From Macrostomum lignano (lineage: Eukaryota), in NCBI GenBank assembly GCA_002269645.1, contig NIVC01000843.1, forward strand, positions 186,001 through 250,000: a DNA stretch of 64,000 nt, read 5' to 3'. This document shows, one piece after another, positions 531 through 40,645 of the stretch. Position numbers and translations under genes: made by a program. Each line of letters begins with the position of its first letter. The first letter of the stretch is position 1. The notes under the pieces are model-generated. The model saw only the letters and a list, made by a program, of their open reading frames with translations. It was not told the DNA's origin and did not search any database.

Positions 531-1320
531 AAGTACCTGGGTCACTGCATCGACATCAATGGAGTGAGATCACTAGCAAAGGCGATTAAGATGGAGAAGT
601 TGACAGACCTGGACTTCACCCTATTAACAGTTGTACCTACCTGATTGTGGATGCCTTTAGTAAGTGGTTGGAGATTTAGCAAGGTGCACAGCAGTGTTGC
701 ATTTGAGACGTGTGTAGTAGCTGTTTAATAACTTGTTGAATAGGCTGGCATCTATTGCATTTATTGCAGATAATACTCTTAGCAAGTGAGGCAGGGTTGT
801 ATGAACTATCTTCTATATTACTAACAGTAGCTAAACCCGAACATTTTATTGCAACCAATCAGGTAATTTCTCTCCATTTGTTTAAATCCCACAATAAGTC
901 CATTTTTTGTTATAACTCTATTAATTGTTTAAATGCGGCCCCCTCCCTCAAAAATTTGATGTCCTCATGTCCTCTTAGTAGCTCATGAAAGCATATTTAA
1001 GTCTGCACCCCTCCTTTCCCAGCCAGACTCTCATTTTTGACCACTGTCCCAACCATTGTTAGGACTCTAGCAGACTTTTTTGCAGCCGCATCCCAGACTC
1101 CAAGATACAAAGGGACCCTATGTATAAGCCTAGTCTCCCATCATGACCAGCTCCTTTCTTGACTGACCATCCAATCTATTTTAACTAATAACAATAACAA
1201 CTAATATTCAGTTCTCTGGCCAATTACTAATCCTAGTGAGACAGGTCCCATTTCAAATATTTCTTGTCCTCGCCGGCCAGTGGATGCAAACGGACGCAGC
1301 CCACCCTACCTGCTGGCCGA
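531..1320 (+). pseudogene. Heavily deleted Ty3/Gypsy (Mag/K02A2.6-like) pol remnant
   Basis: KYLGHCIDING (RT C-terminal motif) at 531; TYLIVDAFSKWLEI (integrase core start) at ~636-678; TGPIS..GQW (integrase C-terminal motif, frameshifted) at ~1243-1285; PPT and LTR start follow downstream. Confidence 0.6.
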
Positions 1321-5189: not shown

Positions 5190-8100
5190 ATGTTTGCATT
5201 TTACCCTAGTTCAGAAGGAGGCTGAACTGGTAGATCAATTCACTGTGGGAATGCGAATTGCTCAGTTGATGAGAGAACAGCTAATCCTGGTGCGATTGCA
5301 GAATCTGACTACAGCAAGGAGGGCTGTGCTACGCTTGTAGACAGCAGCTAGCCTGGGTCAGCGAGCAGCACTGTTGCCGACAGTGAGACATGTCTAGGTT
5401 CTCAAGGATGATAACAGTCAGACGCCAACTGCAATGCAACACGATGGCAAGTCATCTTGGCCCAAGGAGAACTGGTTGCGTGAAGTGATAGAGCAACAAG
5501 CCAAGACTCTACAAGAGCAACAATGTCTACTGGAGACTTTGAGTAACAAAATTTGAGAATTCTACTCATGGGGATTGCGCAATAATAATACCCCGGAGCC
5601 ATGGGAACCTCTGCTCGCCACCGTGCTGCTTGCTACCAGCTGCGTGACAGCGCAACCGATGTCTGGTGCCCACAACTCCTCAATGCCATATGCTACAGGT
5701 GCAACCGCGAGCATTGCACTGATGAGTGCCTACATTGATGGTTGGCCAGCACTATGTCCCAGTGCAACAGCAGCTTGGGAAATGGGATGGCTGGACGCGC
5801 CATTGGGGGCAGCGCTATCTAGTAGCCAAGCTAGCACCCAAGTCCCCGCCGTGGACTTTAGTCACTCAGCAAGCCACTGCTAAGACTACCTCCGCCACAC
5901 CTGTACAGCACCCTGCACCCAAGCAACCTTGAAGGGATCCATTTTTAACCAGTGAGATTCATGGCTGTTATTTTGCTTTTCTGCTTGACACTGGCTCCAA
6001 GTGTGAAGTCCTAGAGTTTAGCACCTGGCACCAACTATGATAGACAACCCGACCTTATATGGCCAAATCGAGCCCTGTCTGCAGGGTATTGTGACCTATA
6101 ATAGAGAACCTATTCAAATGGCAGGCCAGGTAATCACAAGCCTACAGTCAAGTTTCTACTAGCAAAAGGATCACATGACAACATCCTGGGCTTTGAGTTC
6201 CTGGAGAAGTACAGCACCTCACTAGACCTTGCCGCCAGGATGCTGTTCTTCAAGGATCGCACTGCTGCACCACTTTGCTACACGCAAACTAAAGCCACCA
6301 CATGCAGAATCTACACGGCCAAGAGCACAACCATGCTGCCACTATCATCAGCCTAAATTAAGATCAAACTAGCTAAGGGACAAGAAAATAATCAAGGGAT
6401 GCCTGCTGTGATTGAGCTGCTAAAACCGGCTTGGCGCAGACAATGTACAACACCTAGACACCCCGTCTGCCTTAATATCTATGGTTAATAGAGAAGGCAC
6501 AATCGAGATGATCAACAGAGGCACTACATCCAACAAAGTGCAAGCAAATGCCCTAGTTGGGATAGTGAGACCAATCAGACTGCCCAAGCTACGCCTACAG
6601 TTCTTCCTGCTGCTGAAGTCAGAAGCTTCTGTCAATCAAGTCCAAGACAAAGAACCTGACACTTGGATCAAAGAGATTGACATCAGTGAAGATCTGTCCA
6701 ATGACCAGCACACTCAAGTCATGGAGCTATTAAAGAAGTACAAGAACATCTTCTCCAAAGGGTCACACGATCTTGGCCGAACTCACTTGGTCACCTATAG
6801 TATTGTGCTAAAAGACAAGAATCCAGTACATCTGCCAACACAAAGGATTCTGCCAGATCTGTTGCCCAAGGTAGATCAGCTGCTTGACAATCTACTTGCC
6901 AAAGGTGTGATTTGACCAAGCTTCTCCAGCTACAACACCCTACTGGTGATCATCCCAAAGAAGGATGGCAGTCTGAGAATTGTACAAGATTTGAAACAGA
7001 AGTGTGAGTACTTTCCGTACCTGATACCAAACATCCAAAAAGTATTCGCCAGCCTTGAAGGGAGCCAGCTATTCAGTACATTTGATCTAAATAGCAGCTA
7101 CTAAAAAATCCCACTGCATATAGAAGATCAAGATCCGGCTGCCTTCATGACGCTGCACTGCGGACAATTTGCCTACAATGTTATGCCAATGGGACTAAGT
7201 TTGGCACTAGCCAGCTTCATGCGCCTAATGAACGTTGTGCTCAATGGGATTGCCTATAAAAGTGAAATTGTCTATTGGGATGACATAATCATTTATTCTA
7301 AGAAATTCAATGACTATCTATGACATATGGAGGAAGTTTTCAAGCAAGTCTAAGATGCTAATCTAAAGTTCAAAGGCAAGAAGTTCCATCTATTTTGGGC
7401 AAGTCTAAACTATCTGGGACATGTAGTAATGAAAGATGGAATCAAGATTGACCCGGCAAAGATTGAAGCAATTCAGACCTAGCCAAGACCAAGAACAGCT
7501 TGGCAACTAAAAAGCTTTGTTTGCATGTGCGCTTACTATGCAAAATTCATACCTGGCTATGCAGAACTTGCAGCTCTATTCAATGATCTAATTAAAGAGA
7601 AGAAAATTTGAAAATTCAATTGTTTATAGGGAAAAGCCTAGCAAGATAAGTTCAACTAGCTCAAGTCAGCTTTGACTTTGACATCAATGCTTGCGTATCT
7701 GCAACTCAAACTGGCTGAAGCCTGATATCCAATTACTAAACAGGAACTCTTGGCAGTCATAGATGGCATGCGACATTTCTATTTCTACCTACTGGCCAAG
7801 AAGTTTATCTGCCAAACGGATCATGCAGTGCTGACCTAGAACCTAAGGCAAACTCAGCAAGTAGGCATCTTTGGACAATGGCTACAATGCCTAAGCAAAT
7901 TCGAGTTTGAGATTCAGTATCAAAAATCAAGTCAGCACCAGAATGCCAACAGTCTTTCAAGATGGCCTGAGGACGACACTAAATGCATGGAGGCTTAGTG
8001 TGAGGCAGCTGATGAGGACCAAAGTAAGCAGCCAGCCGCAATAAGGGATGCAGCAGCGCCTAAGGTCGTCAGCAGCCACCCTAGTCCTCCACCGAGCAAG

Positions 8101-11070
8101 AGGCAACCAACCAGCCAGAATTGATAAAGGCTGCTGACGAAACTGAAGGAGTCTAATGGGGAGACTACGCTGCCAGCAACACTGGCAGCCAATAGCAAGC
8201 TGCTAACAGAGCTATATCCACCGACAACAAAGCAGAGGCTATCTGCCTGCCATTATCAGGACTCACAGAGGTTGCCTACCAGCTTTAGTAGCACCACATG
8301 TTGCCTCTCAAGGAGCCACTGTCTACTAGGTAAAGGTGACAAGGACTGCAACCATAGCGCAATCAGTGATGACCGCTGCCAACCTGCTTGCCATTTAGTT
8401 TTCAAGAAAAGAGTGTGATTTCGCAGCAACTATGATAGCTTTGCTGACTTATTGTCAACTGCTAATGAATCTAATTCCAACGACAGTGAGGCTGAGGCCA
8501 CCGACAAGGATTGGCCTTTAAATTCATCAACAGCCCGGCAACCAGTCAGAGTAGCAATCATGCGGGGGAGCTCCAGTCCCCTCGCCATGCCGCCACAGCC
8601 AAAGCTGCGCTGACAAATTCTACCAACCAATGCCAAACATTGAACTTAACTGATCCCAAGGCCAGTCACTCGCGAGGAGCTCCAGACCCATTAGCATGTT
8701 GACTCTGCCATTGCTATGGTGATCAATCTAATCAAAATTCAACAACCGAAGCCGCTATTAAATCAGTGATTAAGTTTGACAAGAGACAAGTGAAACCTGC
8801 TAGTGTTTTACAAACAATTAGAAGTCCAAGATGATGGGCTATTAGTGATACATCTTGACAATATCAGCAAGGAGGATACAGTGCAAATCATCTTGCCAAA
8901 GAGCCTCAATGCTACCATGTTTGCCAACCTGCATGGTTTGCCCTACTGTGAACATATGGATAGAGATCTCACCATTGCTAAAGTGCATGAGAGATTCTGG
9001 CAACCTGCTCTGGCCAAGGCAATGTATGACTATATCACTTTTTGCCAGACCTGCACTTTAAGCAAGGGACAGCAACAAATTCTGGTGCATATACAATTAT
9101 TCCCAGTTTGCAAAATCTATAAGCAATGCACAATCAACATCTTGGGCCCCACTGGAGATCCAACAGACCAAAGCAACAAATACATCCTAACTGTGTTGAT
9201 ACTATGTTGAAATATCCTTTTGCCTTCACCATGAAGACTCAGCATGCCAAGATGATCATAACTCTCTTGTAAGAGCAAGTCTTTCCAATCACTGGAATCC
9301 CCGCGTGGATACATTTGGATCAAGGCAAGCAGTTCACAGGGCACAAGTTTTGACATTTCTACGAAGTCTATGGCATCCAGCAAATAACAACGCCACCAGT
9401 CACCTTAGGCCAATGGACAAGCCAAATTGTGCAACAAAAACATCAAGAAAGTGCTCACTTGTTTCCTAGAAGACTATCAGCAATGGGACAAGATATTGCC
9501 AGCCTTTTTGACAACCTTAAGATCAGCTATCAACTATACGACGGGTTTCTTGCCGCACTACGTTGTCTACGGAGTGCCCTATTGGTATCCAATCAATAAC
9601 ACCCTAGACCACCTGGACATATTGCCTGACCTCCCCGAGTACATGGCAAAGCATCAGCGCAGACTAGCCAAGACTGAGAGGATTGTACGACAGCTACTGC
9701 AAGCTGAAATCTAGTGCCAAAAAGAGTACTACAAGAACCGGCCAAAGCCTGTGGAGCTGTAGCCCTGAGACCTGGTCTTCCTGGCCAACCCGAAGCTTGA
9801 GTTGGAAGAGCTGCCCAAGTTCCATTGGCTATACAAAAGCATGTATAAAGTTGACCACAAAGTTGGAAAAGTTGTGTACTAGATCAAGCCTGCAATAGCC
9901 CACCAAGGATGCCTAGCTGAAATGTTGGTTCATTGCAACAATATCATTAAGGTGCTGCAGGTGATAGCAGATTGACCACAGGAGTCATTGCACCAAACTG
10001 AATGACCTAGATGCTGCCCTACAAGTCAAGCCATGAAAGCGAAGCTGACCCTGCCAATCCACCCGCTCCAGACTAGCCAGCCACAGCTCAGCTTGACCTG
10101 CGAGGCAGCCAGCTGTTCAAGCCTGGCAGGAAGTGCTGCTTGAAGGTGACCCAGATCTGTATAACATTGGCATGGAAATTGAGGTCTAAAAGGTATTTAC
10201 CAACAAATTTTATGTAGTGCCTAGTTGCTAACTATCAATGTGCATTACTGTTAGTCAATTTTGCAAATGCATTCTAAATTTTATCTTGCTATAAGCTTTT
10301 TCTGCACCTGTTATGTGCTAAAAGAAGATTTTTTATTTTCTAAGTTTCTACTTTTCCTTATGATTTTGGGATAAAAGCAGGCATTAATTTTAATTTTCTG
10401 TCATTGCCTTATGCTTGAGGGCAAAAGCAACTAATTTCCTGTCATTTCCTTATGCTTGAGGGCAAAAACAACTAATTTTCTGTCATTTTATTATGATTCA
10501 AGATAAAAGCAACTTTTTTTATTTTCTACCATTTCCTTATGCTTTTTGGCTAAAAGCAGCATTTTTTAAACTGTTCAATTATTATGTACAGTGCACAATT
10601 TGATATTTATCCAACGCAAAACATTTAAACCAGCAATTTGCACTCTGTATTTATCCCTGTGTTTTCTGACCAAAGCTTGTACCAATGCAACCATATTTAT
10701 CCAATGGATCAATATTTAATTAATGCCGTATAGTAAAATCATTGCTTAATTATGTTTCATTTGATTTTTGTGTATCTCTCTTTCATTGTGAACTTTTTTG
10801 CACACAATCAAAGTGCAAAAGTATCATCTTTTCTTACACTTTTGGAAGAAAAGCAACCAACTTTATAAACATTTTAGTTCTATTAAAACTAAAGGTGTTT
10901 TTTTCAATTTTGCGAGCCCACTCTTTAAGGGCCAAACTGTCTTCTGCCCTGCTCAAGTCAATCAGGCCTTGGATCTAGGCCTTGTCCTCCGCAGAGAGCT
11001 TTTGAGGTGACTCGACCCCTGTTATTTGTTCTGTATATAGCTTTAGCATTGTACATATTGGCATACAAGG
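5190..11070 (+). mobile_element. Decayed Ty3/Gypsy copy, 5'-truncated in gag, same family as the element at 19949-30181
   Basis: Collinear with the minus copy: gag ELVDQFTVG (~5225), zinc knuckle (~5690), protease LDTGS (~5985), RT YWDD (~7275), RNase H (~7700-7950), spacer, integrase (8770-9900), degenerate 41-bp repeats (~10350-10560). Many stops and frameshifts. Confidence 0.92.
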
Positions 11071-18136: not shown

Positions 18137-19948
18137 ATTTGAATATATTATACAAAAAGTCTATTATAAATAAAGAACATTATACTATAAGCAGAATATA
18201 TTTCAATTTAGTTATTCCAATCTGTATTTAGATTATGGCACTTTAAAGACCACTTTCCAATGGGAAATAATTCCTTTGATTATGTCAAATGATACATGAA
18301 AAAACAGTGAAAACACTTATAAATATATATATTGGTATAGTTGTGGCATAATAAGTAGAATTCTAAGACTAAATTTTGGTAAAAAAATAATTTTGTTACG
18401 TTTAAAGGCAAAAGTAAAGCTTGGCCTTTTTATTCTAAGCTACAACTTAAAAAAACTTTTTATAATGATTGCAATTACTTAAGGCATTCACTTTGATATA
18501 TTATCTAATGTTATGCCATTAAATAACTAAATTAAACATTAAACAATTAAACATTGAAGAAAATAAACCCTTTAATGGCTTTATGGCTATAAATTTCAAG
18601 CCTAAATAGGCCCTAGGCCTATAAAAAGAACTTTAATAAAGCTAAAGCTATATGTCCTATTAAGAGCACTAGGTTATATCAATATATAATTATAAGTATA
18701 ATTGTATTATTATCTTTTTAGGCTAATCTAATTAACATTTCTCATTTATGATATAGATAAGCCAATATGGATATTGATTATTATTTAATTATCTATAGTA
18801 TAGGCCTAGTCCTTATAACATTATCTTAGTCAACTACCCTTACCCTAGCCCTAGGCTAGGCCTGCCGCCTAGCCTAGGGCCTAGTCTTTTTCAAGCTAGC
18901 ACTAGACCTAGCCTAGAGTAGAGCTTTTTTAACTAAAATAAAGTCAAAGATTATATTTAGCTATGCCTATTAGTATATTTTAAATTTAAAGGCATAAAGC
19001 AAACCAGACAGTGTTGATTTGGTTAGGCCTAGGGCCTACTGGCCTAGCCTATTCTAGGCCTATAGAATGTCACATATTGCTTGATAATGTTAATGATTTC
19101 ATTTAAGCCAAAGTAGAGGCAAAGCAAAGGTGTTTTTGAACTTTTAGCTAGTGATTAGTTGGGCCAGCAAACCTAGCCCTGGCCTAGTCCTTGAATTACA
19201 CTAGATATACTATTCCTCGTCATTCCATAAGATAATATGCACTAAGTCTAGCAAAGATTACTTGCTAGTGACGAGTAGTAACAGTAACAGTAACAGTAAT
19301 GAAACAACTAGACCTATTCAACTCACATCACACATGACAAAATATACCTAATTCTCAGTATCTGAAGTCTCCATCTGACCTAACAAACAACTAAATAATT
19401 GCCAGCCAGCCCTAGCTCATTTTAAATTGGCGGCAATTTTAACAGCCGATTCGAATGTATTAGTTGGCCTTAGTAGGCCTTGCAAACATGATCTTTGAAC
19501 ACAGAACTTGTTCGCAACAGCCTTAAAGGCGGTCAACGATCATGTTCAATTTGGCTTTATTCGTGTTAACAGGGCTGTAAGAATATAATTTAATAATGAA
19601 AAAAATAATATAAAAAATAATAATAATATTTATAATAATAATTAAAGACATTTATTCCATTACTCTTACAACAAATAGTTTTCTTTACAATCAAATACTG
19701 CATTGACAAAAAATGTTATAATGTGTAGCGGTTCGGGGCGTTGCGGTGCGTGTTTTACGGAGACCCTGACACGTTTTTAAATAATAGGTAGTAAAACAAT
19801 ATAACTAAAAAAATGACATCAGGATAGAGTGTCTTCGTTAAATACAAGTAAAATTACAGTTATTTAAAACAAAGGAGCTTTAAAAAGACATTTAGTTTGT
19901 TGAATTTTTTAAAACTTTTTTACGCAATAAAAACTTTGCGTTTCTATA

Positions 19949-20971
19949 TGAGGTGGGGGTGGAGAAGAACTTTCTTAGAATGGTTGTTTTTTGAATTTGC
20001 TGACACCAGTGAGGTGGGGCAGATTCCTCGTTTGAATTGCCGCCGGCATTGAGTTCGCACGAATAAAAACCGGAAAAACGCGCAGACGAATCACAACAAA
20101 ATTTCTTCTCCTGTTTTACTCTGACAGCCGGGTTCTCAAGTCCGGGGGGAGGGTAGTTGTAATCGTAGCGGAGTGGTCGTATAGCGGCCCGGTCGTTCAG
20201 ATCCATAGACTCAATTGGTCTTGACACCGTAAATCTGCTTTTGAATTGTCATACTGATTACTGTCAGTAGAGTAGCGCTGCCACCACCGTAATTTGATCC
20301 ATATTACGGAACGTTGGGATCTCAGAGCTCGCTTAGAGTTGAGATCGATTCGGTTGTTTAACGCCCCACGGGCAAATGACTCAAGATAACTATTATGGGC
20401 TTCGTTAATGAGATAGACTTAATTATTAGTTAATTAATATTATTTATTGATGTTGTACTAGCAGGCGTAAATTGGCAAAATAAAGTTAAATTCAGACGAT
20501 TGATCCTCGGCCGGTGCCGGGTGGGACGACTAACTGCACAAACTAGTAGATCGAGACTAAATAAGTACTAATTTAACTTTGTGCACAACAGGAAATTAAA
20601 CACTAAACAGACAAGTACACGAGGGTTTGCGAAGCGGAACAGAACAGAAAACGAACAAGTAGGAGGCAGGGGAAAGGAAAGATGAAAACTTGCGGCCTGA
20701 AATGGCCTTAATAAATAGTGGGGCGATGTCATCCGGACGGGGATGGAGCAGCAGATGGGGCAGGAAGGCGAAGGATGGGGCAGGAGATGGGGCGAAGGAT
20801 GGGGCATCGGACGACAACAAAGCCGGGAATGAGAATAACAAAAAATTACGCGCAACGGCAAAAGATGGGGCAATTGGGATGGGACATAGGACGGCGCAAC
20901 GGGTGACACAGAACGCAAGAGTCATTGCGGTGAGGTCACCTGTTCCAAACGTGGTAGTGCACCCTACCACA
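19949..20971 (-). repeat. 3' LTR (1023 bp)
   Basis: Direct repeat of 29156-30181; minus strand TGTGGTAGGG...CACCTCA. Confidence 0.97.
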
Positions 20972-21019
20972 GGCGCTGGGGCACCGTGCGCTAAAAGAAA
21001 ACTAGCAGTCTCCCGGCTG

Positions 21020-21628
21020 CTACTGTTGACATTCTCTGCCGGAGCCGCGGCCTCGACGAGTGGCTGGCGGTCGGGCAGTCGCAGCGTCAGTCTGGGCGGT
21101 GGCGGCGTCGGCCTGGGCAGCGGCGGCAGCTTCTCGTACGGCGGCGCGAGGGGCTTCCAGGAGGCAGACTTGGCCGTCCACGAGATCCAGCCTCTCTGGG
21201 CACTTGCTGACGACCAAATCGTGGAACAGGCGGAGTCGTGGCGGCCAGCCGTGCTGCAGGTGGCCCGCCTCCCAGAAAGCCATAGTCACTAGGATCGCCA
21301 GCGCAGGTCGAGGCTGGTAGCCGGCTTGACGATAGGCCTCCTCTGTGGCTTGGAGCGTATCTTCCAAGATGTCCCGGGTGGTCTTGGGGGGCATCCAGCC
21401 GCAGAGTGTGCGCCACTTGCCATCCACGCGAATTCGGCCTCGACGGGCTGCATAACCGAGTGCCCCGCGTAGAGCATCGCGCAGCCGGGCTCGCGCCACC
21501 TCGGTTCTTGTAGCGGTTGCCACATAGGCCCTTATTAGTGCCTCGGCCTCGCCCGGGCGCAGGCCAGCTCCTGGAGTTGACGGGGCGGACGCCTGGGGTG
21601 CGGGTTCTCCCATGTTGCTGTTCTGCAT
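21020..21628 (-). CDS. ORF3: 202-aa unknown accessory protein in the env position, not env-like
   Basis: Open from ATG 21628 to TAG 21020 on the element sense strand; no signal peptide or TM helix; candidate 3' splice acceptor TGCCTTTGTCAG at 21670. Confidence 0.65.
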   Translation of the reverse strand: MQNSNMGEPAPQASAPSTPGAGLRPGEAEALIRAYVATATRTEVARARLRDALRGALGYAARRGRIRVDGKWRTLCGWMPPKTTRDILEDTLQATEEAYRQAGYQPRPALAILVTMAFWEAGHLQHGWPPRLRLFHDLVVSKCPERLDLVDGQVCLLEAPRAAVREAAAAAQADAATAQTDAATARPPATRRGRGSGRECQQ

Positions 21629-22676
21629 AATTCCGTAGCCGGAGTTGTCAATAGACTTACTTAAAATTGCTGACAAAGGCACAGAGTCGCAAAACCAAAA
21701 TTGGAAAAACAGAGCAGGAGAGTTGGGGCTTCAGATATATATTGCTAACCATGCATCCGATGGACAGGGTTTGTCCTTCCGATGGTGGGATTCCGTCACC
21801 CCCCATGCACTCTAACAAGGCACACAACGGAGGTGAGGTGGGTGAGTGAAAAGAGAGCAATAAAATTTGGCCGCGAGGAGGGGTCCAAAACCTCCTACCT
21901 TAACTGAAGGCGGCAGTGCCTTATTGATTAAAAGGGGCGCCTTAAACGGCTTACATTGGAAAGGGGTAAGCATTTGAAAAAAAAAAGGGAGCCTCGCAAA
22001 CATTAGTTAAAATGATAAAACTGATAAAATAGTGAGAGGCTAGCCAGCTCCTTCTGACTAAAATTATAATAGTAATTATAACCGTAATGAATAGCGTAGT
22101 GACCACTGAACAGGTTATCGTACGGGGATCTCCATATGGAGTTACAACAAAAGAGCAAAAGAAACCGAGCCGAAATGAGGGGCTCTAACAAAATTTCCCA
22201 GGCCTAGCTGGCACGAACAATGCAAAGAATAAACATATGGGGGAGAGATTCTCCTCAGGTGCCTTCCGCTGAAGACAAGACCTCGAGTTAGGGGTGCTTG
22301 TCCCGAACGGGGCAAAATTTCCGAATAAAAAATGGCAGAAGTGCACACTTGCCGTCCATGTTTGAGACTGACAGGCTCACAATTCAGGCATGCTTTTCTC
22401 CTGAAAGCATAAGGCAAGAAAGAGAGACTTTCCGCACTTTGGCCGGGTGCTAGGAAAGTTTACAATTGATTGGGGGTTTCGCAGACTATTAAGACGCAGG
22501 GGAGCGATGATGCGGGTGAATAATATCGCGTTGGTGCAAGGCTTTTACCATTAAGCCTAAGGCTAAATATCAGACGCAGAGGTGCAGGTCGCATTGGATA
22601 AATATGCGCTCGAAATTGAGCATGAGCACCAAGTTTACAAATGCTTTTGACCAGAAAGCGTAAGGAGCAGAGATTG

Positions 22677-23014
22677 AAAAATTAGTTGCTTTTGCCCTCA
22701 AGCATAAGGAAAGTACAGAAAATTAGTTGCTTTTGCCCTCAAGCATAAGGAAAGTACAGAAAATTAGTTGCTTTTGCCCTCAAGCATAAGGAAAGTACAG
22801 AAAATTAGTTGCTTTTGCCCTCAAGCATAAGGAAAGTACAGAAAATTAGTTGCTTTTGCCCTCAAGCATAAGGAAAGTACAGAAAATTAGTTGCTTTTGC
22901 CCTCAAGCATAAGGAAAGTACAGAGAATTAGTTGCTTTTGCCCTCAAGCATAAGGAAAGTACAGAAAATTAGTTGCTTTTGCCCTCAAGCATAAGGAAAG
23001 TACAGAAAATTAGT
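22677..23014. repeat. 8 x 41-bp tandem array between pol and ORF3
   Basis: Unit GAAAATTAGTTGCTTTTGCCCTCAAGCATAAGGAAAGTACA, one substitution across 8 copies, no spacers. Confidence 0.97.
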
Positions 23015-23170
23015 AACGAAAATTGAAATCTGCTTTCAGCACAGAACGGGTGCAGAGAAAGCTTACAGCGAAATTTAATTCAGAACGCATTCGCAAACGG
23101 GACTACTCATAGTAATGCGCAACGTTAATTTATCTATTAGGCGCAACAGAAAAATTCGCTGGTAATTACC

Positions 23171-26100
23171 TTAGAGTTCCACTTCCATGCCGACATCCGG
23201 CAGGTCCGGGTCGCCTTCAGCGAGCACTTCCGGATGACGCAAACTTGGCTCGAACAGCTGGCTACCCCGCAGGTCGGGCTGAGCTGTGGCTGGCTGTACT
23301 TGCGCGTGCTGATTGGCGGAGTCGGCTTCGCTGTCGTCACTCGACTCATAGGGCAGCATTGGCCTCTCAGTCTGGCGCGGCGGCTCCTGTGGTCGGTCGG
23401 CCATCATCTGCGGCACCTTGATGATGTTGTTGCGATGTACCAACATTTCAGCCAGGCGTCCTCGGCGGGCTGTCGCCAGTCTGATCCAGTACGCCACTTC
23501 TCCGACTTTCCTAACGACCTTGTACATGCTTTTGTAGGGCCAGTGGAATTTAGGCAGCTCTCCCAGTTCAAGCTTCGGGTTGGCCAGGCAGACAAGGTTG
23601 CCGGGCTGCAATTCCACGGGCTTAGGTCGATTTTCATAATATTCTTCATGGCGTTGGATCTCAGCTCGCAGACGTTGTTGTACAATGCGCTCAGTCTCGG
23701 CCAGTCGGCGCTGGTGCTTCGCGATGTATTCTGGGAGGTCAGCTGATACATCCAAGCGGTCTAGGGTGTTGTCGATAGGGTATCGATAAGGCATTCCGTA
23801 GACGACATAGTGCGGCGAGAAACCAGTAGTACGATTGACAGCTGATTGTAGTGCAGTTAAAGTGGCTGGCAGCATCTTGTCCCATTGCTGGTGGTCTTCT
23901 AGGAGACAAGTGAGCACCTTCTTGATATTCTTGTTACACGACTCGGCTTGTCCATTAGCCCAGGGCGAATATGGCGGTGTCGTAGTCTGTCGTATGCCAT
24001 AGACTTCGCAGAAATGTCGGAAATCATGCCCTGTGAACTGCTTGCCTTGATCGGAGTGAATCCACGCCGGGATTCCAGTGATCGGGAAGACCTGTTCCTG
24101 CAGGAGAGTTATGATCGTCTTGGCCCGCTGATTTTTCATGGCGAAGGCGAAGGGATATTTCGACGTTGTGTCAACGTAGGTCAAGATGTACTTGTTTCCT
24201 CGGTCAGTAGGATCTCCAGTGGGGCCTAAGATGTCAATCGCACATCGCCCATAGATTTCACATACCGGAAACGATTGTACATGCGCCGGAATTCGTCGTC
24301 GCCCTTTGCTCTGCGTGCAAGTCTGGCAGGAAGCGACGTAGTCGGACACTGCTTTAGCTAGGGCAGGTCGCCAGAATCTTTCGCGCACTTTTGCAATGGT
24401 GAGGTCTCGGCCCATGTGTCCGCAGTACGGCGAGCCATGCAGGTCGGCAAACACCATGGCGTCGAGACTTTTCGGCACGACAATTCGCGCTATCTCCTCC
24501 TCGCCAACATCGTCGAGATGAATCACTAGTAGTCCGTCGTCTCGAACTTCGAGCTGCTCGTAAAATGCTAGCAAACTTCGCTCATCTCTTGTCATATTCA
24601 ATCACTGATTCAGCGGCGGCTTGGGTTGTCGACTTTCGATAAGGTTGATCACCATAGAGATGGCAGAGTCAGCACGCTGATGGGTCTGGAGCTCTTCGCG
24701 GGTGACTGGCCTCGGAATGTGATCAGTTAGATTCAAGGTTTGGCGTCGATCAGTAGGATTAGACGGTGCGGCTTTGGCTGTGGTGGCATGGTTCGGGGTC
24801 TGGAGCTCCCTACGCATGATGGCTACTTGGGCCGGTCGCCGTGTTGTCGGTGTGTCCGAAGGTCGATTCTTGTCAGTGGCTTCGGCGTCACTGTCGCTCA
24901 ATCCTGATTCGTCAGCAGATAAGAATGATGAGGCAGCACTATCAGCATCAAGGCTAAACCTCACCTTCTTGAACCTTGGGTTGCGAGCGGGTTGGCAGCG
25001 GTCAACTCGGGCTGCACTGTGGTCGCTGTCCTCGCCCTCTCCAGCTCGTAGTCGGCGGCTCCTCGCGGGGCAACGTGCCGTGCTAACGAGACTAGTGGGC
25101 GATCGCTGCGAGTCCTTGTAACAACTGGCCGTTGGCCTCGGCTTCGTCGCCGGCGGGTGCAGCTCTGTCAGCGGCCTGCTGTCGGCTGTTGGTGTTGCTG
25201 GCGGCGTAGCCTCGCCGTTGGACTTCTTCGGCTTTGTCGGCGGTCGTCGTCGATTCCGGCGGGTCGATGGCTTCTTGCTCGGTGGAGGGCTAGGGTGGCT
25301 GCTGTCAAAGACCTTCGGCGCCGCTGCGCCAGTTATCGCGGCTGGCTGCTTACTTTGGTCCTCGTCTGCTGCCTCTCGCTGAGCCTCCTCCATGCATTCA
25401 GCGTCGTCCTCTGGCTGTCTTGATAGGCCGTCGGCATTCTGGTGCTGACTCGATTTGCGATGCTGGATCTTGAACTCGAATTCGCTTAGGCGCTGTAGCC
25501 ATCGTCCAAAGATGCCTACTTGTTGAGTTCGCCGGAGAATCCAGGTCAACGCTGCATGATCAGTTCGACAAATAAACTTCTTGGCCAGCAGGTAGAATCG
25601 GAAATGTTGCATGCCGTCTACAACTGCCAAGAGTTCCTGCTTTGTTATCGGATATTGCGCTTCAGCTGGTTTGAGTCGCTGGAAGAAATAGCCAATTGGT
25701 CGTTCGATTCCATCAGCTTGGCGCTGGCTCAGACATGCTCCGATTCTAATCGCAGAAGCATCCATGTCCAGGACAAACATGACGTTGGGGTCTTCGCTGA
25801 ACTGCGGATACGCGAGCACTGAGGTCGAAGTCATGGCCGCTTTAAGCTGGTCAAACGCGTCTTGTTGGGCTTTCCCCCATAGACAATTAAAGTTGCGAAT
25901 CTTCTTCTCTTTAATTACATCGTGGAGTGGAGCTGCCAACTCTGCGTAGCCAGGTACAAATTTTGCATAGTAAGCACACGTGCAGACAAAACTTTTCAGT
26001 TGCCGGGCAGTTCTTGGTCTCGGCCAGGTTTGGATTGCTTCAATTTTTGCCGGATCGGTCTTGATGCCGTCTTTCGTAACTAGATGTCCCAAATAATTGA

Positions 26101-27744
26101 GGCTTTCCCGAAATAAATGACACTCCTTGCCTTTGAACTTTAAGTTAGCGTCTTGGACTTGTTTGAAGACTTCCTCCATATGTCAAAGATGGTCGTCGAA
26201 TTTCTTGGAATACACGATGACGTCATCCAAATAGGCTATGGCACTTTTGTAGGCTATCCCTTGAAGTACAGCGTTCATGAGGTGCATGAAGCTGGCTGGT
26301 GCTGAACTTAATCCCATTGGCATAACATTGTAGGCAAATTGCCCTCTGTGCAGCGTAGCGAAGGCTGTCAGATCTTGGTCTTCTGGGCGCAGAGGTATCT
26401 GATAATAACTGCAAAGGTGCTAAATAGTTGACTTCCTTCAAGGCTGGCGAATGCTTCTTGGATATTCACTATCGGGTACGGAAAGTACTCACACTTCTGG
26501 TTCAGACTCCAGAAATCTTGTACAATTCTCAGGCTTCCGTCCTTCTTTGGGATGATCACAAGCGGGGTGTTGTAATTCGAGAAGCTTGGTCGGATCACGC
26601 CTTTGACAAGCAGATCATCTAGCAGCTGGTCCACTTTGGGCAACAGGTGCGGCGGGATCCGTCGGGTCGGCAGGTGTACAAGATCCTTATCCTTCAGTAC
26701 AATGTTGTGGGTGACCAGGTGAGTTCAACCTAGATCTTGCGGTCCTTGAGAGAAGATGTTCTTGTACTTCTTCAGCAGCTTGATGACTTGAGCGCGCTGG
26801 TCACTGGACAAGTCCTCGCCGATATCGATCTCTTTAATCCAAGCATCCGGATCTTCGTCCTGAATCTGCTTGACAGAGACTTCTGGCCGTGGAAGCGGGT
26901 AGAATTGAAGTTCTGGCAGTCTAAGTGGTCTCGCAATCCCGATAAGTGCATTCGCTCGCACTTTAATAGATGTTGTACTGCGATTAATCATTTCGATTGC
27001 ACCTTCACCATTGGCCATAAATATTAGCGCAGGCGCAGCGTCCAGGTGCTGCACCTCGTCTTCCCGTCTGGCTGGTTTCAGCGGCTCGATAACTGCTGGT
27101 GTTCCTTGATTGTCTTCACGCCCTTTAGCTAGCTTAATTCTAATTCGGGCCGATGATAATGGTGGCACTGTGGTGCTTTCGGCCGTGTAGATTCTGCACG
27201 TAGTAGCTTCGGCTCGTGTGTAGCAAAGTGGGGCGGCTGTGCCATTCTTGAAAAATAGCATCCCGGCTGCGAGGTCGAGGGAGTTGCTGTGCTTCTCCAG
27301 GAACTCGAAACCCAGGATGTTATCATGAGATCCTTGTGCTAGCAGAAAATTGACTGTCGACTCGAAGTTGCCGATCTTCATCTGGATTGCAAGCTGTCCT
27401 GCCATCTTGAATGGTTCGCCATTGTAGGTCACGATTCGCTCTAAACAGGGCTTGATTTGTCCACGCAGAGAGGGGTCGTCGATGCAAAGTCGGTGCCAAG
27501 TGCTGAATCCGAGGACCTCGCACTTAGAGCCAGTATCAAGCAAGAAAGCAAAATAACGCCAATTAATCTCACCAGTTATAAACGGGTCTCTCCGAGGGCG
27601 CTTGGGTGCAGAGTTCTGTACAGGTGCGGAGGCGGTCTCAGCAGTAGCCTGCTGAGCGACTAAAGTCTGCGACGGGGACTTTAGTGCTGGCTCGGCCGCT
27701 GGATGGCGCTGCCCCCGATGGCGCGTCTAGCCGTCGCGTTTCCC
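23171..27744 (-). pseudogene. pol: pol polyprotein (protease, RT, RNase H, long spacer, integrase)
   Basis: LLDTGS protease; RT YLDD (~26225); RNase H DAS..IGACL and TDHAAL; integrase HxxxH..C..C and D..D(HSDQG)..E; GPY/F-like tail. In-frame stops at 27727, 26725, ~26183 and 24602; ~10-nt deletion at ~26410 relative to the plus copy. Confidence 0.96.
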
Positions 27745-29087
27745 GAGCTGCTGCTGCGCTGGGGCGCATTGCTGGCCAACCGTCGATGCAGGCACTCCTC
27801 AGCGCGATGCTCCCGGTTGCACCTGTAGCACATTGCACTCTGGCGTCTTAGCTGATAAGGCGGCAGTCTCGAACTCGGCTGCGGCGGCTGTTGCAGCTGC
27901 GGCTGCTGCTGCTGCTGCTGTCGCCATCCTCCTGCCGGCGGCGTCCTTGGTGGCGGAATGCTGCCGTCATGCGGTTGCTGAAGCTGATGGAACTGTTGAT
28001 GCTGCACATTGCGTGTGCCGTTTGTCGCAAATTGAGCGCTTCCTTCAGCGCTGCGGCGAGGAGTCATGGGTACCAGACATCGGTTGCGCTGGCCCCAGGA
28101 GTCCCGCGGCTAGTGGCGAGCAGGTTTATATGGCTCCGGGGTGTCGTTATCTCGCGATCCCCGTGAGTAGAACTCCTGCATCTCATTGCTCAGGGCTTCT
28201 AGTAGACGTTGCTGCTCCTGCAGTGTCTCTGACTATTGCTCCATCACTTCTCGCAACCAATTTTCCTCGGGCCGAGGTGACTTGTCGTGTTGCACTCCAG
28301 TTGGTGGCTGACAGTCGTCATCCTCGAGAACCCGTACATGTCTCGCGGCCGGCGGTGGTGCTACTCGCTGAGCCAGGCTCGCTGCTGTCTCTAGGCGTAG
28401 CACTGCCCTTCTCGCTGCGGTTAGATTCTGCGGCCGTACCAGGATTAGCTGCTCTCTGGCTAACTGGGCGATTCGCACTCCGACCGTGAACTGGTCCACC
28501 AGTTCGGCCTGCTTCTGAACTGGGGTGAAGTGCGGGAATGCTCTATCAGCCAGAGCAATTAATCGGTCACCGTAGTCGTCGACACTCTCGTTTTTGCCTT
28601 GCTGGCAGCAACGGAACTGCTCCCGGTACTCCAGCGTGTCGGCCACGTGCGTGAAGCGCTCAGACAACCTCTGCTTGAACTCGCCAAACGTCAGATTGTC
28701 CGGCAGTTCCATCCTGACGACTGCGGGATATGTGGTGGCGATGTCCAGATTTACTAGGACTTCCGCCTTCTTTTGTCTGTCGTCCATGATCCCGTTGAGC
28801 TCACAACGCTCCTCGAGAGCCTGGATCCAGACGTCGAAATCCTGGTTTGGAGTGTACCGTTGAATCTTAACCGGTTTCGGCACTGGAGCTCAGTCCGGCT
28901 GTTGGGGCGGCTGGTACACGTGGTGATGGTGTTGTGGCTGTCCCAAATTAGCCTGCTCCAGTCGTTGTCGCACCTCTTCGGTCACCGCGCGGATCATCTC
29001 GTCGTAGGTAGGTCTTGTAGATGAATTGTCGGGGCCCGCGGCGTCGGTTGTCGCGTCCGCGGCCGTTGAGTTAGTAGTCGAAGCCAT
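27681..29087 (-). pseudogene. gag: gag
   Basis: One frame from ATG 29087 (MASTTN) to TAA 27681 with internal stops at 28890, 28233 and ~28112; retrotransposon gag core; C-terminal CYRCNREHRAEEC knuckle (CX2CX3HX4C). Confidence 0.9.
27738..27744 (-). promoter_or_regulatory. -1 ribosomal frameshift slippery heptamer G GGA AAC
   Basis: In gag frame (TCG GGA AAC); pol is in the -1 frame; the plus copy has G GGA AAT at 5777-5783. Confidence 0.8.
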
Positions 29088-29155: not shown

Positions 29156-30181
29156 TGAGGTGGGGGTGGAGAAGAACTTTCTTAGAACGGTTGTTTTTTT
29201 GAATTTGCTGACACCAGTGAGGTGGGGCAGATTCCTCGTTTGAATTGCCGCTGGCATTGAGTTCGCACGAATAAAAACCGGAAAAACGCGCAGACGAATC
29301 ACAACGAAATTTCTTCTCCTGTTTTACTCCGACAGCTGGGTTCTCAAGTCCGGGGGGAGGGTAGTTGTAATCGTAGCGGAGCGGTCGTATAGTGGCCCGG
29401 TCGTTCAGATCCGTAGACTCAATTGGTCTTGACACCGTAAATCTGCTTTTGAATTGTCGTACTGATTACTGTCAATAGAGTAGTGCTGCCACCACCGTAA
29501 TTTGATCCGTATTACGGAACGTTGGGATCTCAGAGCTTGCTCAGAGTTGAGATTGATTCAGTTGTTTAACGCCCCACGGGCAAATGACTCAAGATAACTA
29601 TTATGGGCTTCGTTAACGAGATAGACTTAATTATTAGTTAATTAATATTATTTATTGATGTTGTACTAGCAGGCGTAAATTGGCAAAATAAAGTTAAATT
29701 CAGACGATTGATCCTCGGCCGGTGCCGGGTGGGACGACTAACTGCACAAACTAGTAGATCGAGACTAAATAAGTACTAATTTAACTTCGTGCACAACAGG
29801 AAATTAAACACTAAACAGACAAGTACACGAGGGTTCGCGAAGTGGAACGGAACGGAAAACGAACAAGTAGGAGGCAGGGGAAAGGAAAGATGAAAACTTG
29901 CGGCCCAAAATGGCCTTAATAAATAAATAGTGGGGCGATGTCATCCGGACGGGGATGGAGCAGCAGATGGGGCAGGAAGGCGAAGGATGGGGCAGGAGAT
30001 GAGGCGAAGGATGGGGCATCAGACGACAACAAAGCCGGGAATGAGAATAACAAAAAATTACGCGCGACGGCAAAAGATGGGGCGAGGGATGGGACATGGG
30101 ACGGCGCAACGGGTGACACAGAACGCGAGAGTCATTGCGGTGAGGTCACCTGTTCCAAACGTGGTAGTGCGCCCTACCACA
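29156..30181 (-). repeat. 5' LTR (1026 bp)
   Basis: Direct repeat of 19949-20971 with ~30 substitutions and 3 small indels. Confidence 0.97.
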
Positions 30182-31349
30182 AATATACCAATCTTTTAAA
30201 TGATGTTTTGAATAATAGAAATTAGTTGTCTAGTCAACTTTTTATTGCTATGGTGCTGCAAAAATTCTCTGTTTGCTGTAAATTTTAGGAAGACACAAAA
30301 AAATTTCTGTATTAATTTTTGTATTCACCCATAGCCATATGCCTTGAACTCTGGGGATATTAATATTATATTTATAATTATTACTTTAGTTATTATTATT
30401 ACTCAGTGTTTATTTAAAGTTTTGAATATAATAATTATTAATTAGGTTCTAAAAAAGCATATTGAAATTGCTTTTCTTAAACTTTTAAATGATAGTTTCA
30501 CGTTTTCATATAACAGGCCACGCCCACTCCAACGAGTCAACAACCAACTATAAATGTCGTAATTAGATTAGATAATATAATTATAAACAACCAGTAATGA
30601 TTTGAAAGAAAAATAATGTGCTTGACAATTTTATATGTTTTAAGTATTTTTTCAATATTTTACATTCAACCACTTTTAGTTAAATTAGTGCCATTTAATT
30701 TGGTCTATAGCTTTATTTGAAACTATTGAGAAGAGCAAGATCAGCTCTTTAATTTTGGACCATATGCTAGGCTGTCAAACTTGAAGTTGAACAAGTGCCA
30801 TTATTGGCTTGTGATGGAAGCAATCAACAAAGGTCAGCACCCAAAGTACATGGCAAGGTTACTAAATGTAAAATAAAATATGGTTTATAGCATTTACTGG
30901 CATATTGAAATTGCCTTCAAAGGGGTAACAATTGCTAAGGAAAGTTGCTAGAGCTTCAGGTTGAACCAATACTCAATTGGATTAAGACAAACCCTTTGTT
31001 AATTGTGAAAAAAATAGCAGAAATTAAATGAGCAGTTCCAGTTGGTTATCAAGTTTTGACTATTAGCAGAGCTCTGTAAGGCAACTGAAAATTGTTGGTA
31101 AAGATGCTAACATTCCAGAGGTTAACAACTATAGACTGTTGCAAGAAGGAAGAAATTTGCCAAATGGTACAAGGGTTATCCCAGAAATAGCAGGAAAAAC
31201 TGGTATAGAGGCAGAGGAGAGGCAGAGGAACAGCCGCTGGTCCAGAATTCGGGGCTTGTACATGTACCACTGCAGCATCTGCAGCTTGAGACACTGCTAA
31301 GTTACCTGCAGGAGCCCGTCTATTGCATTAATTGCAAAGCCAGAAAAAC

Positions 31350-37432: not shown

Positions 37433-40393
37433 TAGATAGACAGACAGACAGACACACAGACAGACACCATGACAGACAAAAAACTGAGACAAACAATAAC
37501 ACAGACGGACAGACAGACACAAGGATAGACAGACACCATGACAGACACAGACGGACAGACGAACGGCTCGTTTCAATCCTTTGCAGCATATCATTATCAG
37601 TGAGGAAGTGAGAATTTGCCTGTCAGACCGAATTCCAGACCAACTTACCTGTCTACCTGTCTGTCCTCCTTAGGACTACCTATACTTATCTACACTGTCT
37701 ACCTATCTTAGTGAGACGTTTCATGTCGAATCAATAGTCTTTATAAAAGGCCATATTAATAGACTAAACATCGTTGAGCTTTAAAAAGTATTCTGCACTT
37801 TTATAGGTTCTTAATATTGGCCACTTAATACGTGTTCGACCTGTCTTTCCAATCCAGGATCCTAGAACCTGTCTGGACCCGCCGTCCTTAGAGCCCAGCC
37901 AGTGGCCAGACGACATCACTCGTTGGCCGCCTTGTCGCCGCTCTTTGCCGGCTTCGTCGCTAACATCTACTAGTAAAATTAGTACTAGTAGTAGTATCAA
38001 CGCCGAAGTGAAGCATCTCACTTGTCCTGTTAGCGCCGCTCCCTGCTGCGTTGGAATTAAAGGTGATTATTAGGTATATCTGTGTAATTTTGTCCTGGGA
38101 CAAGGGGTCGCCATCATAAACCCGAAAAATCACAACTCCGAAAGCAGTTTCCATCATAAACCCAAAATATCATAACTCCGAAAACCAAAATAGTGTTGGA
38201 CATGCTAAAACTTTCGCAGTTCTGATATTTCGGGTTTGTGATTGTGATATTTCGGGTTTATGATGGAAAGCGCTTTTCGGAGTTGTGATTTTTCGGGTTT
38301 GTGATGCCCCCTCCCCCTGAAAGACACTGTGACAGACGCAAGAACAGACACTAGAACAGACTAAGACAGACGCAAGGACAGACACCAGGACAGACACCAA
38401 GAAACACACTGGGACAGACACCAGAATAGACACTAGGGCAGACTAAGACACACTGAGACAGACACCAAGAAAGACACTGGGACAGACACCAGGACAGGCA
38501 CTGGGACAGACACCAGGACAGGCACTGGGTCAGACTAAGACAGACACCAGGACAGACACTGGGTCAGACTAAGACAGACACCAGGACAGAAACTGGGTCA
38601 GACTAAGACAGACACCAGGACGGACACTGAGAAAGATACTAGGACAGACACCAGGACATACTAAGACAGACACTGGGACAGATACTAGGACAGACTAAGA
38701 CAGACACCAGGACGGACACTGAGAAAGATACTAGGACAGACACCAGGACATACTAAGACAGACACTGGGACAGATACTAGGACAGACTAAGACAGACACT
38801 AGGACAGATACTGAGACAAATACTAGGACAGACTAAGACAGACATCAGGACAGACGCTAAAAATGAGACACAAAGCTGGACCCCAGAACAGACAAACTAA
38901 TTAGACACTAATTGCACCTTTAGGCGAATGCGTCCTAACCACTACTGAGCGTTGCAAATTCTTACGCGGCCGATTTCATCCCGAAGTGCGACTGTGCTCG
39001 CAGGTCAATTGTCTCGACGAGTCCTGCGGCTTATTTGGTGGTATATCAACAGATTCAAAGCCGAATCAATGGTATCGAATATTCACTAGTCTGTTTATTC
39101 ATTCGGGTTTGCTATCGTTGTTGCTTAGTCTGTTCGTTCAACTGCGTCTGCTTGTACAGGTGAGTTGGCCTAATTGGATTGTTCTATTAATAAACACCTC
39201 TTATTAGTAGGCCCTTGGCTTGTGTTCCTTGAGTCCTTCCAGATGTCTCCCTTTGTAGTCATAGGCGATTATTATCACTAGCCTTCCAGTCCAGATTCCT
39301 CCTTTAGTAGTCCTTGCCGTGATCCTTAATCATTTAGGCCTTGTGACTTTTTAACGACTCAAACGCATCAAATTCGACGGAGAGTCGACTGTTGTGTCAC
39401 GAGTGCGTCGCGTGAGCTGTTGAATCGTAAAGAGTCGCGAAAGAGCCATCCAAGAATCGTTGTGTTAGCGCTTAACTTAGCGCAAATGCGCTTCAAGCAC
39501 AACTCAGTGACTCTACAGCGAATCTGGCACGCCTCAAATACGACTCTACGACCCCAGAATCACTTGCGTCACCCAAAAGTCGTTTAAGAGTTGCAGGCGG
39601 TAAAACGCGTCAAAGTGATCTTGAGCGACTGTTTGACGAATTTTTGCGGCTTTTACGTACCGCGTGACATCTCGTCCTTTTAAAGTCGTTTAGAGTCACT
39701 TCTTTCCCATTTTACCTGTGTCATCTGGGACGCTTAATCTTATTCCAAATTTGCACCTGTCACCACGCCGCAGGTAGAGCATCTGGCTGGCTGGCACAGA
39801 ACCGCCGCAATTTACCTCGGCTCCGGCCTGTACGGCAATTTAGTATCGCTGAATCTGCTACCAAATCTAGTAGACGCCGGGCCGGCCCCTGCTCAACTCG
39901 GAGCGCTCTGTCCTCTGGGCTTAGAACTGCTCATGTCTGCTAAACAGTTGAGCTCGCCTCGATTCGGCCCGTTTATAGCTTTGACCTTTTGCGTTATCGC
40001 CGTGTTGTTAGCTAGCCTGTTGCCGTGGTTCGATCTGGCCGCTAATGCTGGCGGATTAATTAGTGGCTGTCTGCTGACACCTGTACTGTTGCCGCATGTT
40101 AAATTAGGCAAACGGCTTTGTAGTAGAGCGGCTGTACTATGCTTGTGCGCATTAGTGTGGCTAGTTACCATTGTTGGCCTGGCGTTAGTGTTTTTGTTTA
40201 CGACGGTTCAGAGTTGCCGTTGCGCTGCAATTGGTGCGCTTTGGCTAGCTGCGCTCCAAGACTGCTGGCTGGCGGCAATGGAGGCGGAGATGCCGCTGTG
40301 GACCGGTTTGCTGATCTGTGCGGCGATGCGGACCTGCGTAGCATGCAGCCAACCCAGTGTATTGGACGACTGGCTGCGGGCTTTGAGCAGTGA
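32792..40393 (+). CDS. RHBDF: Inactive rhomboid protein (iRhom)
   Basis: Exons 32792-32860 (tentative), 32946-33178, 34508-35003, 36119-36652, 37858-38062, 38924-39159, 39774-40393, with compatible phases. Motifs [22 protein letters not shown]|[35 protein letters not shown] (GPx in place of the catalytic GxSG). The natural C-terminus LRCNWC needs a 1-nt frameshift at ~40197. Confidence 0.93.
33250..34430. repeat. G-free C/T/A low-complexity satellite (CCCTCTCAT / CCATCCCTA) in an iRhom intron
   Basis: Direct inspection; accounts for ORFs 33111-34439 and 33217-34446. Confidence 0.95.
35100..36090. repeat. ~29-bp minisatellite in an iRhom intron
   Basis: Unit GATAATCCTTCCAGATCCTCAGATTCACC, more degenerate toward its 5' end. 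Confidence 0.93.
36670..37560. repeat. (GACA)n microsatellite
   Basis: Direct inspection; intronic. Confidence 0.97.
38104..38316. mobile_element. Small foldback MITE
   Basis: IRs ATCATAAACCCGAAAAATCACAACTCCGAAA / TTTCGGAGTTGTGATTTTTCGGGTTTGTGAT; no clear TSD. Confidence 0.6.
38330..38870. repeat. GACAGACAC(C/T)(A/G)G-type ~12-bp minisatellite
   Basis: Direct inspection. Confidence 0.9.
39340..39700 (+). repeat. Dispersed repeat (copy 1), unclassified
   Basis: TGTGACTTTTTAACGACTCAAACG...GAATCGTAAAGAGTCGCGAAA...CACGCCTCAAATA recurs at ~61820-62460. Confidence 0.75.
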
Positions 40394-40458
40394 TTTTACA
40401 AAGGCTTTACAAGCGCTGGCGCACCCTCAAACAGGAGTGTACAGCGGCCTTAACTTTA

Positions 40459-40645
40459 TTTATCGTTAAGCATGTACACTTTACTGTGCCTTTGGGTTTG
40501 TTGGTTCTCAAGGGCGTTAATTGCACGAGCAGAGCCAAGCTGAGATTCCAATTTAGCCCCAGATTAATTAATGACTGCACTTGGAATCGAGCCTGGGCCG
40601 CTGGCACATCAGAGCGTCGCGATAGACCATTACGCTACGTTGCTG
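40459..40645 (-). mobile_element. tRNA-derived SINE family A (3'-truncated)
   Basis: Reverse complement matches 61926-62110; pol III A/B box-like head. Confidence 0.85.

What the first reader, a model, noticed from the sequence alone, without database searches (positions are those of the whole stretch)
21020..21682. Unknown non-env ORF3 in a Gypsy element, with a splice acceptor like env
This 202-aa ORF is intact while gag and pol carry 7 stops and a frameshift, although at this length that is only weak evidence. It has a helical, basic N-half, a W/C-containing core (IRVDGKWRTLCGW, GWPPRLRLFH) and an Ala-rich tail, with no TM or signal peptide. A polypyrimidine-CAG acceptor at 21670 sits 42 nt upstream of the ATG, as for subgenomic env mRNAs. 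It may be an anti-silencing, RNA-binding or targeting factor. A possible homolog lies at 1280-2349.
Basis: partly seen in the sequence, partly recalled or inferred. Interest (0 to 1): 0.75.

Follow-up and report, generated by a model that had tools for sequence, protein, structure and literature searches.

The report
Swappable two-partner retrotransposon accessory gene
A flatworm retrotransposon carries a conserved extra gene with no relative found outside this worm, behind what is likely its own promoter, while near-identical sister elements carry a different partner gene in the same slot; the pair is predicted to regulate the element's own expression rather than act as a viral envelope.

Summary
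ORF3 (21628-21020, minus strand) is a real gene of a Macrostomum lignano Ty3/Gypsy clade, but it is not env-like. It has 104 genomic matches, mostly 31-55% identical, sits between pol and the 3' LTR, and is under purifying selection (dN/dS 0.08-0.14). The proposed splice acceptor is not conserved (4 of 21 copies; 9.5 expected by chance). A conserved CCCACC-TAGAGTRCA-TATA module precedes the ATG instead, likely an internal promoter. The block promoter-ORF3-U3 comes in many old types that are swapped on a shared gag-pol backbone: integrases 98% identical carry ORF3s only 46-63% identical and unalignable U3s. Unexpectedly, the same slot holds a second protein, B, in sister elements. Eight types have both an ORF3-carrying and a B-carrying element, the two co-diverge (Mantel r 0.64, p 0.005), and one lineage fuses them. 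Neither protein has a Pfam, database or convincing fold match outside this worm. Best guess (0.45): a nuclear, type-specific activator or anti-silencer of the element's LTR, working with B in trans. Function is untested.

The parts
21020..21628 (-). ORF3, cargo 'A' (202 aa): helical core res. ~23-158, Ala/Pro linker, Arg/Gly-rich tail
21023..21073 (-). Arg/Gly-rich C-terminal tail (RRGRG / RRGGR), shared by A and B proteins of the same type; NLS or nucleic-acid contact inferred
21735..21741 (-). TATA-like box of the inferred internal promoter, 113 nt before the ATG
   Evidence: 20 of 22 promoter clusters have it 60-100 nt after the upstream motif; 1.7% in shuffles
21800..21885 (-). Conserved upstream module (CCCACC box 21842, TAGAGTRCA 21814-21806); promoter element inferred, weak hairpin possible
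21670..21682 (-).
22632..23014 (-). 41-bp tandem array shared by all types in varying copy number; near the 5' border of the swapped block
23161..23171 (-). AG|GTAATTACC directly after the pol stop: donor-like and palindromic
   Evidence: 24 of 28 copies that retain the pol end
23171..27726 (-). pol (PR-RT-RH-IN), broken in this copy
27681..29087 (-). gag, broken in this copy
19949..20971 (-). 3' LTR; first ~580 nt (to ~20390) type-specific (U3, inferred), last ~440 nt shared between types at 70-83%
29156..30181 (-). 5' LTR, followed by a TGGTG-type primer binding site

Best explanation
ORF3 is a conserved accessory gene of a flatworm Gmr1/Osvaldo-like LTR retrotransposon clade, likely transcribed from its own internal promoter, and it is predicted to be a nuclear regulator that, together with partner protein B made by sister elements, switches on or de-silences the LTR of its own type. 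Shown: conservation, purifying selection, fixed position, exchange of the promoter-ORF3-U3 block between gag-pol backbones, A/B alternation in one slot, A/B co-divergence, one A-B fusion. Inferred: promoter activity, nuclear localisation through the basic tail, action on U3, cooperation of A and B in trans. Model: gag-pol is a shared pool homogenised by template switching. Each regulatory type keeps a private U3 and its matching protein pair, and each RNA carries only one of the two genes behind the internal promoter.
For: 104 matches. 36 of 39 fetched copies have same-strand pol upstream; 33 of 39 have an LTR start just downstream. Within-type dN/dS 0.14, 0.13, 0.08 (3 unsaturated pairs). Synonymous sites near saturation between types (median pS 0.71 vs 0.42 in integrase). 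Integrase 98%-identical pairs carry ORF3 at 46-63% and U3 at shuffle baseline. All four AU tests reject congruence (p 0.009, 0.002, 0.008, 2e-14). Promoter motif: 79 genomic hits, 0 in control; of 30 motif-selected loci 18 carry A, 9 B, 3 neither. B: 64 matches, same promoter and tail, dN/dS 0.08-0.19 in 6 of 7 unsaturated pairs, acidic N-terminal segment. A and B distances co-vary over 8 types (r 0.64, p 0.005). An A gene and the A-B fusion are named M. lignano gene models; that annotation was transcript-based (PMC5730564 passages; link inferred from the id format).
Against: No motif is shared between the internal promoter and the U3 of the same type (cognate score 19.6 vs 18.9 +/- 2.4), which a Tas-like feedback would predict. 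No DNA-binding fold was recognised. ORF3 and U3 are adjacent, so linkage alone explains their co-inheritance. The Mantel signal rests on 8 types, two with partial A sequences, and partly on one sister pair; ORF3 and U3 similarity do not correlate across all pairs (rho 0.14, p 0.17). No transcript start was mapped. Two full-length copies (L034, L038) lack the promoter yet keep an open ORF3. pI ranges from 5.2 to 11.2 across types.
Confidence: 0.45

Rival explanations
1. Rev/CERV-like RNA chaperone: ORF3 binds the element's unspliced genomic RNA through its Arg-rich tail and promotes nuclear export, stability or packaging.
For: Arg/Gly tail in most types. Donor-like site after the pol stop in 24 of 28 copies, and L034 is joined exactly at it, 9 nt before the ORF3 ATG. 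The upstream module folds as a weak hairpin (mean z -1.3 over 19). CERV precedent (PMC10309623, abstract and one discussion section).
Against: No second donor-joined copy was found (1 hit), and the L034 junction also fits a deletion at 1-nt microhomology. No covariation-supported structure. ORF3 has its own promoter-like module, whereas CERV comes from a spliced RNA. The role of B is unexplained.
Confidence: 0.2
2. General suppressors of host silencing (piRNA/RNAi or chromatin): A and B each bind a host factor, and the types persist because divergent cassette RNA escapes small RNAs made against other types.
For: Old, co-existing alleles with saturated synonymous sites. The best fold match of B is AfC3PO (Z 9.9, rmsd 2.5, 103 aligned), with human C3PO and Translin lower in the list. 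Both are compact helical bundles suited to protein binding.
Against: No positive selection within types. Z 9.9 is below the noise ceiling for helical bundles. A non-specific suppressor would not need A and B to co-diverge by type.
Confidence: 0.2
3. Virion or integration cofactor (targeting, nuclear import of the pre-integration complex) that acts with Gag or integrase.
For: Basic tail; confined to one retrotransposon clade.
Against: ORF3s about 50% identical are exchanged freely on near-identical gag-pol, so there is no sign of co-evolution with Gag or IN.
Confidence: 0.1
4. Env-like or fusogenic protein from a spliced subgenomic RNA.
For: Position after pol; one CAG here.
Against: No TM or signal segment (max hydropathy above 1.6 in 1 of 17); acceptor not conserved; no viral fold match.
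Confidence: 0.03

Closest known systems
Foamy virus Tas/Bet from the internal promoter (PMC13220597, abstract only)
   Same: Accessory genes between the replication genes and the 3' LTR, own internal promoter, two alternative products, nuclear regulation of the LTR (here inferred).
   Different: No sequence or fold link found. Tas and Bet come from one genome by splicing; A and B sit in different sister elements. No env here.
Maize Grande gene23 and other plant aORFs (PMC7264820, passages)
   Same: Family-wide accessory ORF between pol and 3' LTR with its own promoter; nuclear protein.
   Different: gene23 is antisense and plant; this one is sense and animal, swapped as a cassette, with a two-gene alternation.
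Oikopleura Tor3b/4b internal promoter Penv (PMC4402516, passages)
   Same: Animal Ty3/Gypsy ORF3 transcribed from an internal promoter after pol.
   Different: Tor ORF3 is a transmembrane Env; this protein is soluble.
Cer1 CERV (PMC10309623, abstract and section 15)
   Same: Novel non-env regulatory protein of an invertebrate LTR element.
   Different: CERV is large, made from spliced RNA and has a Cys loop; there is no invariant Cys in ORF3.
VANDAL VANC anti-silencing proteins (PMC10398659, abstract only)
   Same: TE-encoded factor whose variants diversify with the element's non-coding DNA; tandem repeats present.
   Different: DNA transposon in plants. Here the 41-bp repeats are shared across types, not type-specific.
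Bdelloid rotifer LTR ORF3s: GDSL, DEDDy, TM, coiled-coil (PMC5408684, passages)
   Same: Non-env ORF3 in invertebrate Ty3/Gypsy elements, modular acquisition.
   Different: Those are recognisable enzyme families, described as typically spliced; no Pfam match here.

Membership tests
Ty3/Gypsy LTR retrotransposon | LTRs, PBS, gag then PR-RT-RH-IN | tested here: met
Gmr1/Osvaldo cluster of M. lignano | RT-RH groups with a published Gmr1/Osvaldo family rather than Mag or CsRN1 | tested here: met
   43% vs 29.5% and 32.7% identity; branch 92/95. One reference family per cluster only, so provisional.
Env / errantivirus ORF3 | Signal peptide and transmembrane anchor | tested here: not met
   hydropathy max 0.85 here; polar N-terminus
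Env / errantivirus ORF3 | Conserved splice acceptor before the ORF | tested here: not met
   4 of 21 vs 9.5 expected
Env / errantivirus ORF3 | Fold or sequence likeness to a viral fusogen | tested here: inconclusive
   no E<=0.001 match in BFVD or PDB; absence from a list does not exclude
Tas-like transactivator | Own internal promoter | tested here: inconclusive
   motif conservation strong; no TSS or reporter data
Tas-like transactivator | Response element shared by internal promoter and LTR | tested here: not met
   local-alignment test on 13 copies; short or degenerate sites could be missed
Tas-like transactivator | Binds DNA and activates the LTR | not testable with these tools
   needs reporter or ChIP
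Rev/CERV-like export factor | Arg-rich RNA-binding segment | tested here: inconclusive
   R/G tail present in most types; binding untested
Rev/CERV-like export factor | Structured response element and spliced mRNA | tested here: inconclusive
   weak hairpin, no covariation support; one donor-joined copy
VANC-like anti-silencing | Type-specific tandem-repeat targets in non-coding DNA | tested here: not met
   the 41-bp array cross-matches between types; U3 itself is type-specific
VANC-like anti-silencing | Removes silent chromatin marks from cognate copies | not testable with these tools
   needs transgenics and chromatin assays
Rotifer-type enzymatic ORF3 (GDSL, DEDDy) | Pfam-recognisable catalytic domain | tested here: not met

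The most novel reading that the evidence does not exclude
A two-component accessory system split between sibling retrotransposons: each regulatory type persists as an A-carrier and a B-carrier that share gag-pol, promoter and LTR and need each other's protein in trans (a bipartite retrotransposon), with phage-immunity-like specificity between types and one lineage that fused the two genes.
Probability: 0.3. Interest if true: 0.88.

Novelty: new variant of a known kind. Interest (0 to 1): 0.72.

Why it matters
Most non-env extra ORFs of LTR retrotransposons have no known role. This clade offers many natural matched and mismatched protein/LTR pairs on one backbone, in an animal with working LTR reporter transgenics (PMC12801592, passages), so specificity can be tested directly. 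If A and B complement in trans, it shows cooperating, multipartite behaviour in an animal retrotransposon and an invertebrate parallel to complex-retrovirus regulation. It also adds two protein families with no match in the databases searched.

Tried and rejected
Homolog searches: none for A or B among length-matched proteins. The profile search of 1.84 billion representatives with A gave only two M. lignano proteins; it was not run for B. Atlas blank for both. Fold: no Foldseek match; VIA best Z 8.3 (A) and 9.9 (B), both within helical-bundle noise. A vs B homology: full-length hhalign 88% was driven by the shared tail; cores alone scored 16.4 vs shuffle maximum 16.15. Helix order is alike and 9 of 50 VIA entries are shared, so remote paralogy is possible but not shown. 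Expression: no RNA holder listed on record; four runs laid were contigs only and showed no splice joint among the rows displayed, which is uninformative. Complex prediction of A with B was not available, so there is no verdict. Domestication of Mlig017912 was considered and dropped: an LTR of the clade lies about 2 kb downstream. No heat-shock element in the LTRs scanned. The window's plus-strand sister element (about 5200-11050) has no A or B. Literature: nine counted searches; 'Macrostomum + retrotransposon + ORF3' and the two gene ids gave 0 papers. The M. lignano LTR survey has no occurrence of 'ORF', 'splic' or 'intron' in its main text. Its predecessor survey was not read and could mention these ORFs. 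Earlier scan notes: none.

Full report
1. Observation. The ORF is at 21628-21020 on the minus strand, in an LTR element spanning 30181-19949 with LTRs 96% identical. Pfam finds gag, RNase H and integrase upstream and nothing significant for ORF3. Two family members are identical to named Macrostomum lignano proteins, which gives the host. RT-RH places the element with a published Gmr1/Osvaldo family rather than Mag or CsRN1 (one reference family each).

2. ORF3 is a selected gene. It has 104 matches among 128 candidates, a lower bound that includes itself. Some are duplicated loci rather than separate insertions: L036 and L056 share flanks. I fetched 40 matches with about 10 kb of context; one (L058) matched only the tail. 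Of the other 39, 36 have same-strand pol upstream and 33 an LTR start just downstream. Sixteen columns are invariant in 17 open copies. dN/dS is 0.14, 0.13 and 0.08 in the three unsaturated within-type pairs, and 0.53 in the very close pair window/L031 (12 changes). AlphaFold gives a confident bundle of helices over about residues 40-140 and disordered ends, with no significant fold match.

3. Expression model. An acceptor-like site within 60 nt of the ATG occurs in 4 of 21 copies against 9.5 in shuffles, so the env-like reading fails. What is conserved is a CCCACC box, TAGAGTRCA, often one or two CCAnnGGTTGG-like palindromes, and a TATA box. The module was found in 21 of 27 copies examined; one group of types has the TATA without it and L038 has lost it. 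TATA follows at 60-100 nt in 20 of 22 promoter clusters, against 1.7% in shuffles. Genome-wide the motif has 79 hits and 0 in the reversed control. The LTR of the related family Mlig-id38 shows the same order of CACCCC, TAGAGTGC and TATTTAA (PMC12801592 supplement 5 passages; compared by eye). I infer an LTR-like internal promoter. Against this: no start site is mapped, and a donor-like palindrome follows the pol stop in 24 of 28 copies, with L034 joined exactly there. No second such copy was found.

4. Cassette exchange. Gag and pol are mostly 80-97% identical in protein while ORF3 is 34-54%. The 40 ORF3 sequences fall into 18 nucleotide clusters, a few of which may be frameshift artefacts. 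Synonymous sites are near saturation in ORF3 (median pS 0.71 vs 0.42 and 0.40 in pol; 28 pairs, one copy frameshifted). L033/L034, L034/L048 and L035/L063 have 98% identical integrase DNA but ORF3 at 53, 63 and 46% and U3 at shuffle baseline; L036/L042 show the reverse. Trees of 15 copies (frameshifted and near-duplicate rows dropped) conflict, and four AU tests, named after seeing the trees, reject congruence. So promoter-ORF3-U3 is an old block, bounded by the shared 41-bp array and the shared distal LTR, that moves between backbones.

5. A second cargo. Three loci with the window's promoter lack the ORF3 core. In L058 and L103 a different 253-aa frame, B, fills the slot, while the backbone stays 93-100% identical to the window and the Arg-rich tail is kept; in the third (L102) an insertion interrupts it. 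B has 64 matches (some tail-only), the same promoter spacing, an acidic N-terminal segment, a helical core and purifying selection. Of 30 loci chosen by the promoter motif alone, 18 carry A, 9 B and 3 neither. Eight types have both an A and a B element: matched by U3, by promoter cluster, or for one type by an identical motif string. Other types showed only A among the loci held. A and B distances correlate across the eight (r 0.64, p 0.005). One lineage (three loci, Mlig013834) fuses A and B. No separate A and B genes were seen in one element. Whether A and B are remote paralogs is unresolved.

6. Mechanism. A gene with its own promoter, a basic tail, no membrane segment, indifference to which gag-pol it travels with, and inheritance with a private U3 fits best a regulator of the LTR, as with foamy Tas (PMC13220597 abstract) or VANC (PMC10398659 abstract). 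Retention of both A and B in eight deep lineages, plus the fusion, suggests joint action in trans. These steps are inference. The test for a shared promoter/U3 element was negative, linkage alone explains co-inheritance, and binding was not modelled. I give this 0.45, RNA export 0.2, general silencing suppression 0.2, virion cofactor 0.1, env-like 0.03.

7. The 'possible homolog' at 1280-2349 belongs to a sister LTR family (RT 43-53%, IN 48%) with a 372-377-aa ORF directly after pol (33 matches). It is a positional counterpart, with no homology to A or B above shuffles.

8. Novelty. Extra ORFs and internal promoters in LTR elements are known (PMC7264820, PMC4402516, PMC5408684, passages; PMC10309623 abstract and one section; 10.1101/2025.03.14.642691 abstract). 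I found no description of these proteins or of an A/B alternation in the searches listed under Tried and rejected. Subscription papers, bioRxiv supplements and the earlier M. lignano survey were not seen. Verdict: new variant of a known kind, interest 0.72.

Noticed in passing
window 20951-21000 (-) and most copies: Every LTR begins with a hairpin TGTGGYAG..CTRCCAC in which the C/T and G/A sides change together, and it is preceded by a C-rich stretch rather than a polypurine tract. Plus-strand priming may be non-standard.
   Followed up: partly
window 1280-2349 (+); L174-L179: Separate family of 372-377-aa ORF3s (basic N-terminus, Pro-rich middle, helical C-terminus) starting a few bases after the pol stop in a sister LTR clade. 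By eye it resembles B (LxELL, CxxW, RAI) but not above shuffles.
   Followed up: partly
L034 (G000:C2067), L038 (G000:C1811): Two elements with paired LTRs have lost the spacer and promoter, so ORF3 follows pol directly; L034 is joined exactly at the donor-like site.
   Followed up: partly
window 22632-23014; 10391-10572: 41-bp tandem array conserved across types with variable copy number; could be an export, packaging or recombination element.
   Followed up: partly
L138 / model m9eafb6211a68: Best fold match of B is archaeal C3PO (Translin/Trax family), Z 9.9, with two more family members listed; a lead only.
   Followed up: no
L050; G000:C4905:11244-13244: Tandem duplication of the ORF3 unit (1.4 kb, 97% in L050).
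   Followed up: no
window 5196-11047 (+): Older, heavily broken sister element (about 76% to the minus-strand one) that ends in the spacer without ORF3 or a recognisable 3' LTR.
   Followed up: partly
window 19945-19948 and 30182-30185: Target-site duplications are 4 bp in L034, L036 and L038; the window copy has one mismatch.
   Followed up: yes
window 44057-44731 (+), 39933-40469 (+), 55388-56221 (+): Host-gene-like ORFs. From memory they resemble Hop2/TBPIP, a rhomboid-family membrane segment and RPAP1; names recalled, not tested.
   Followed up: no
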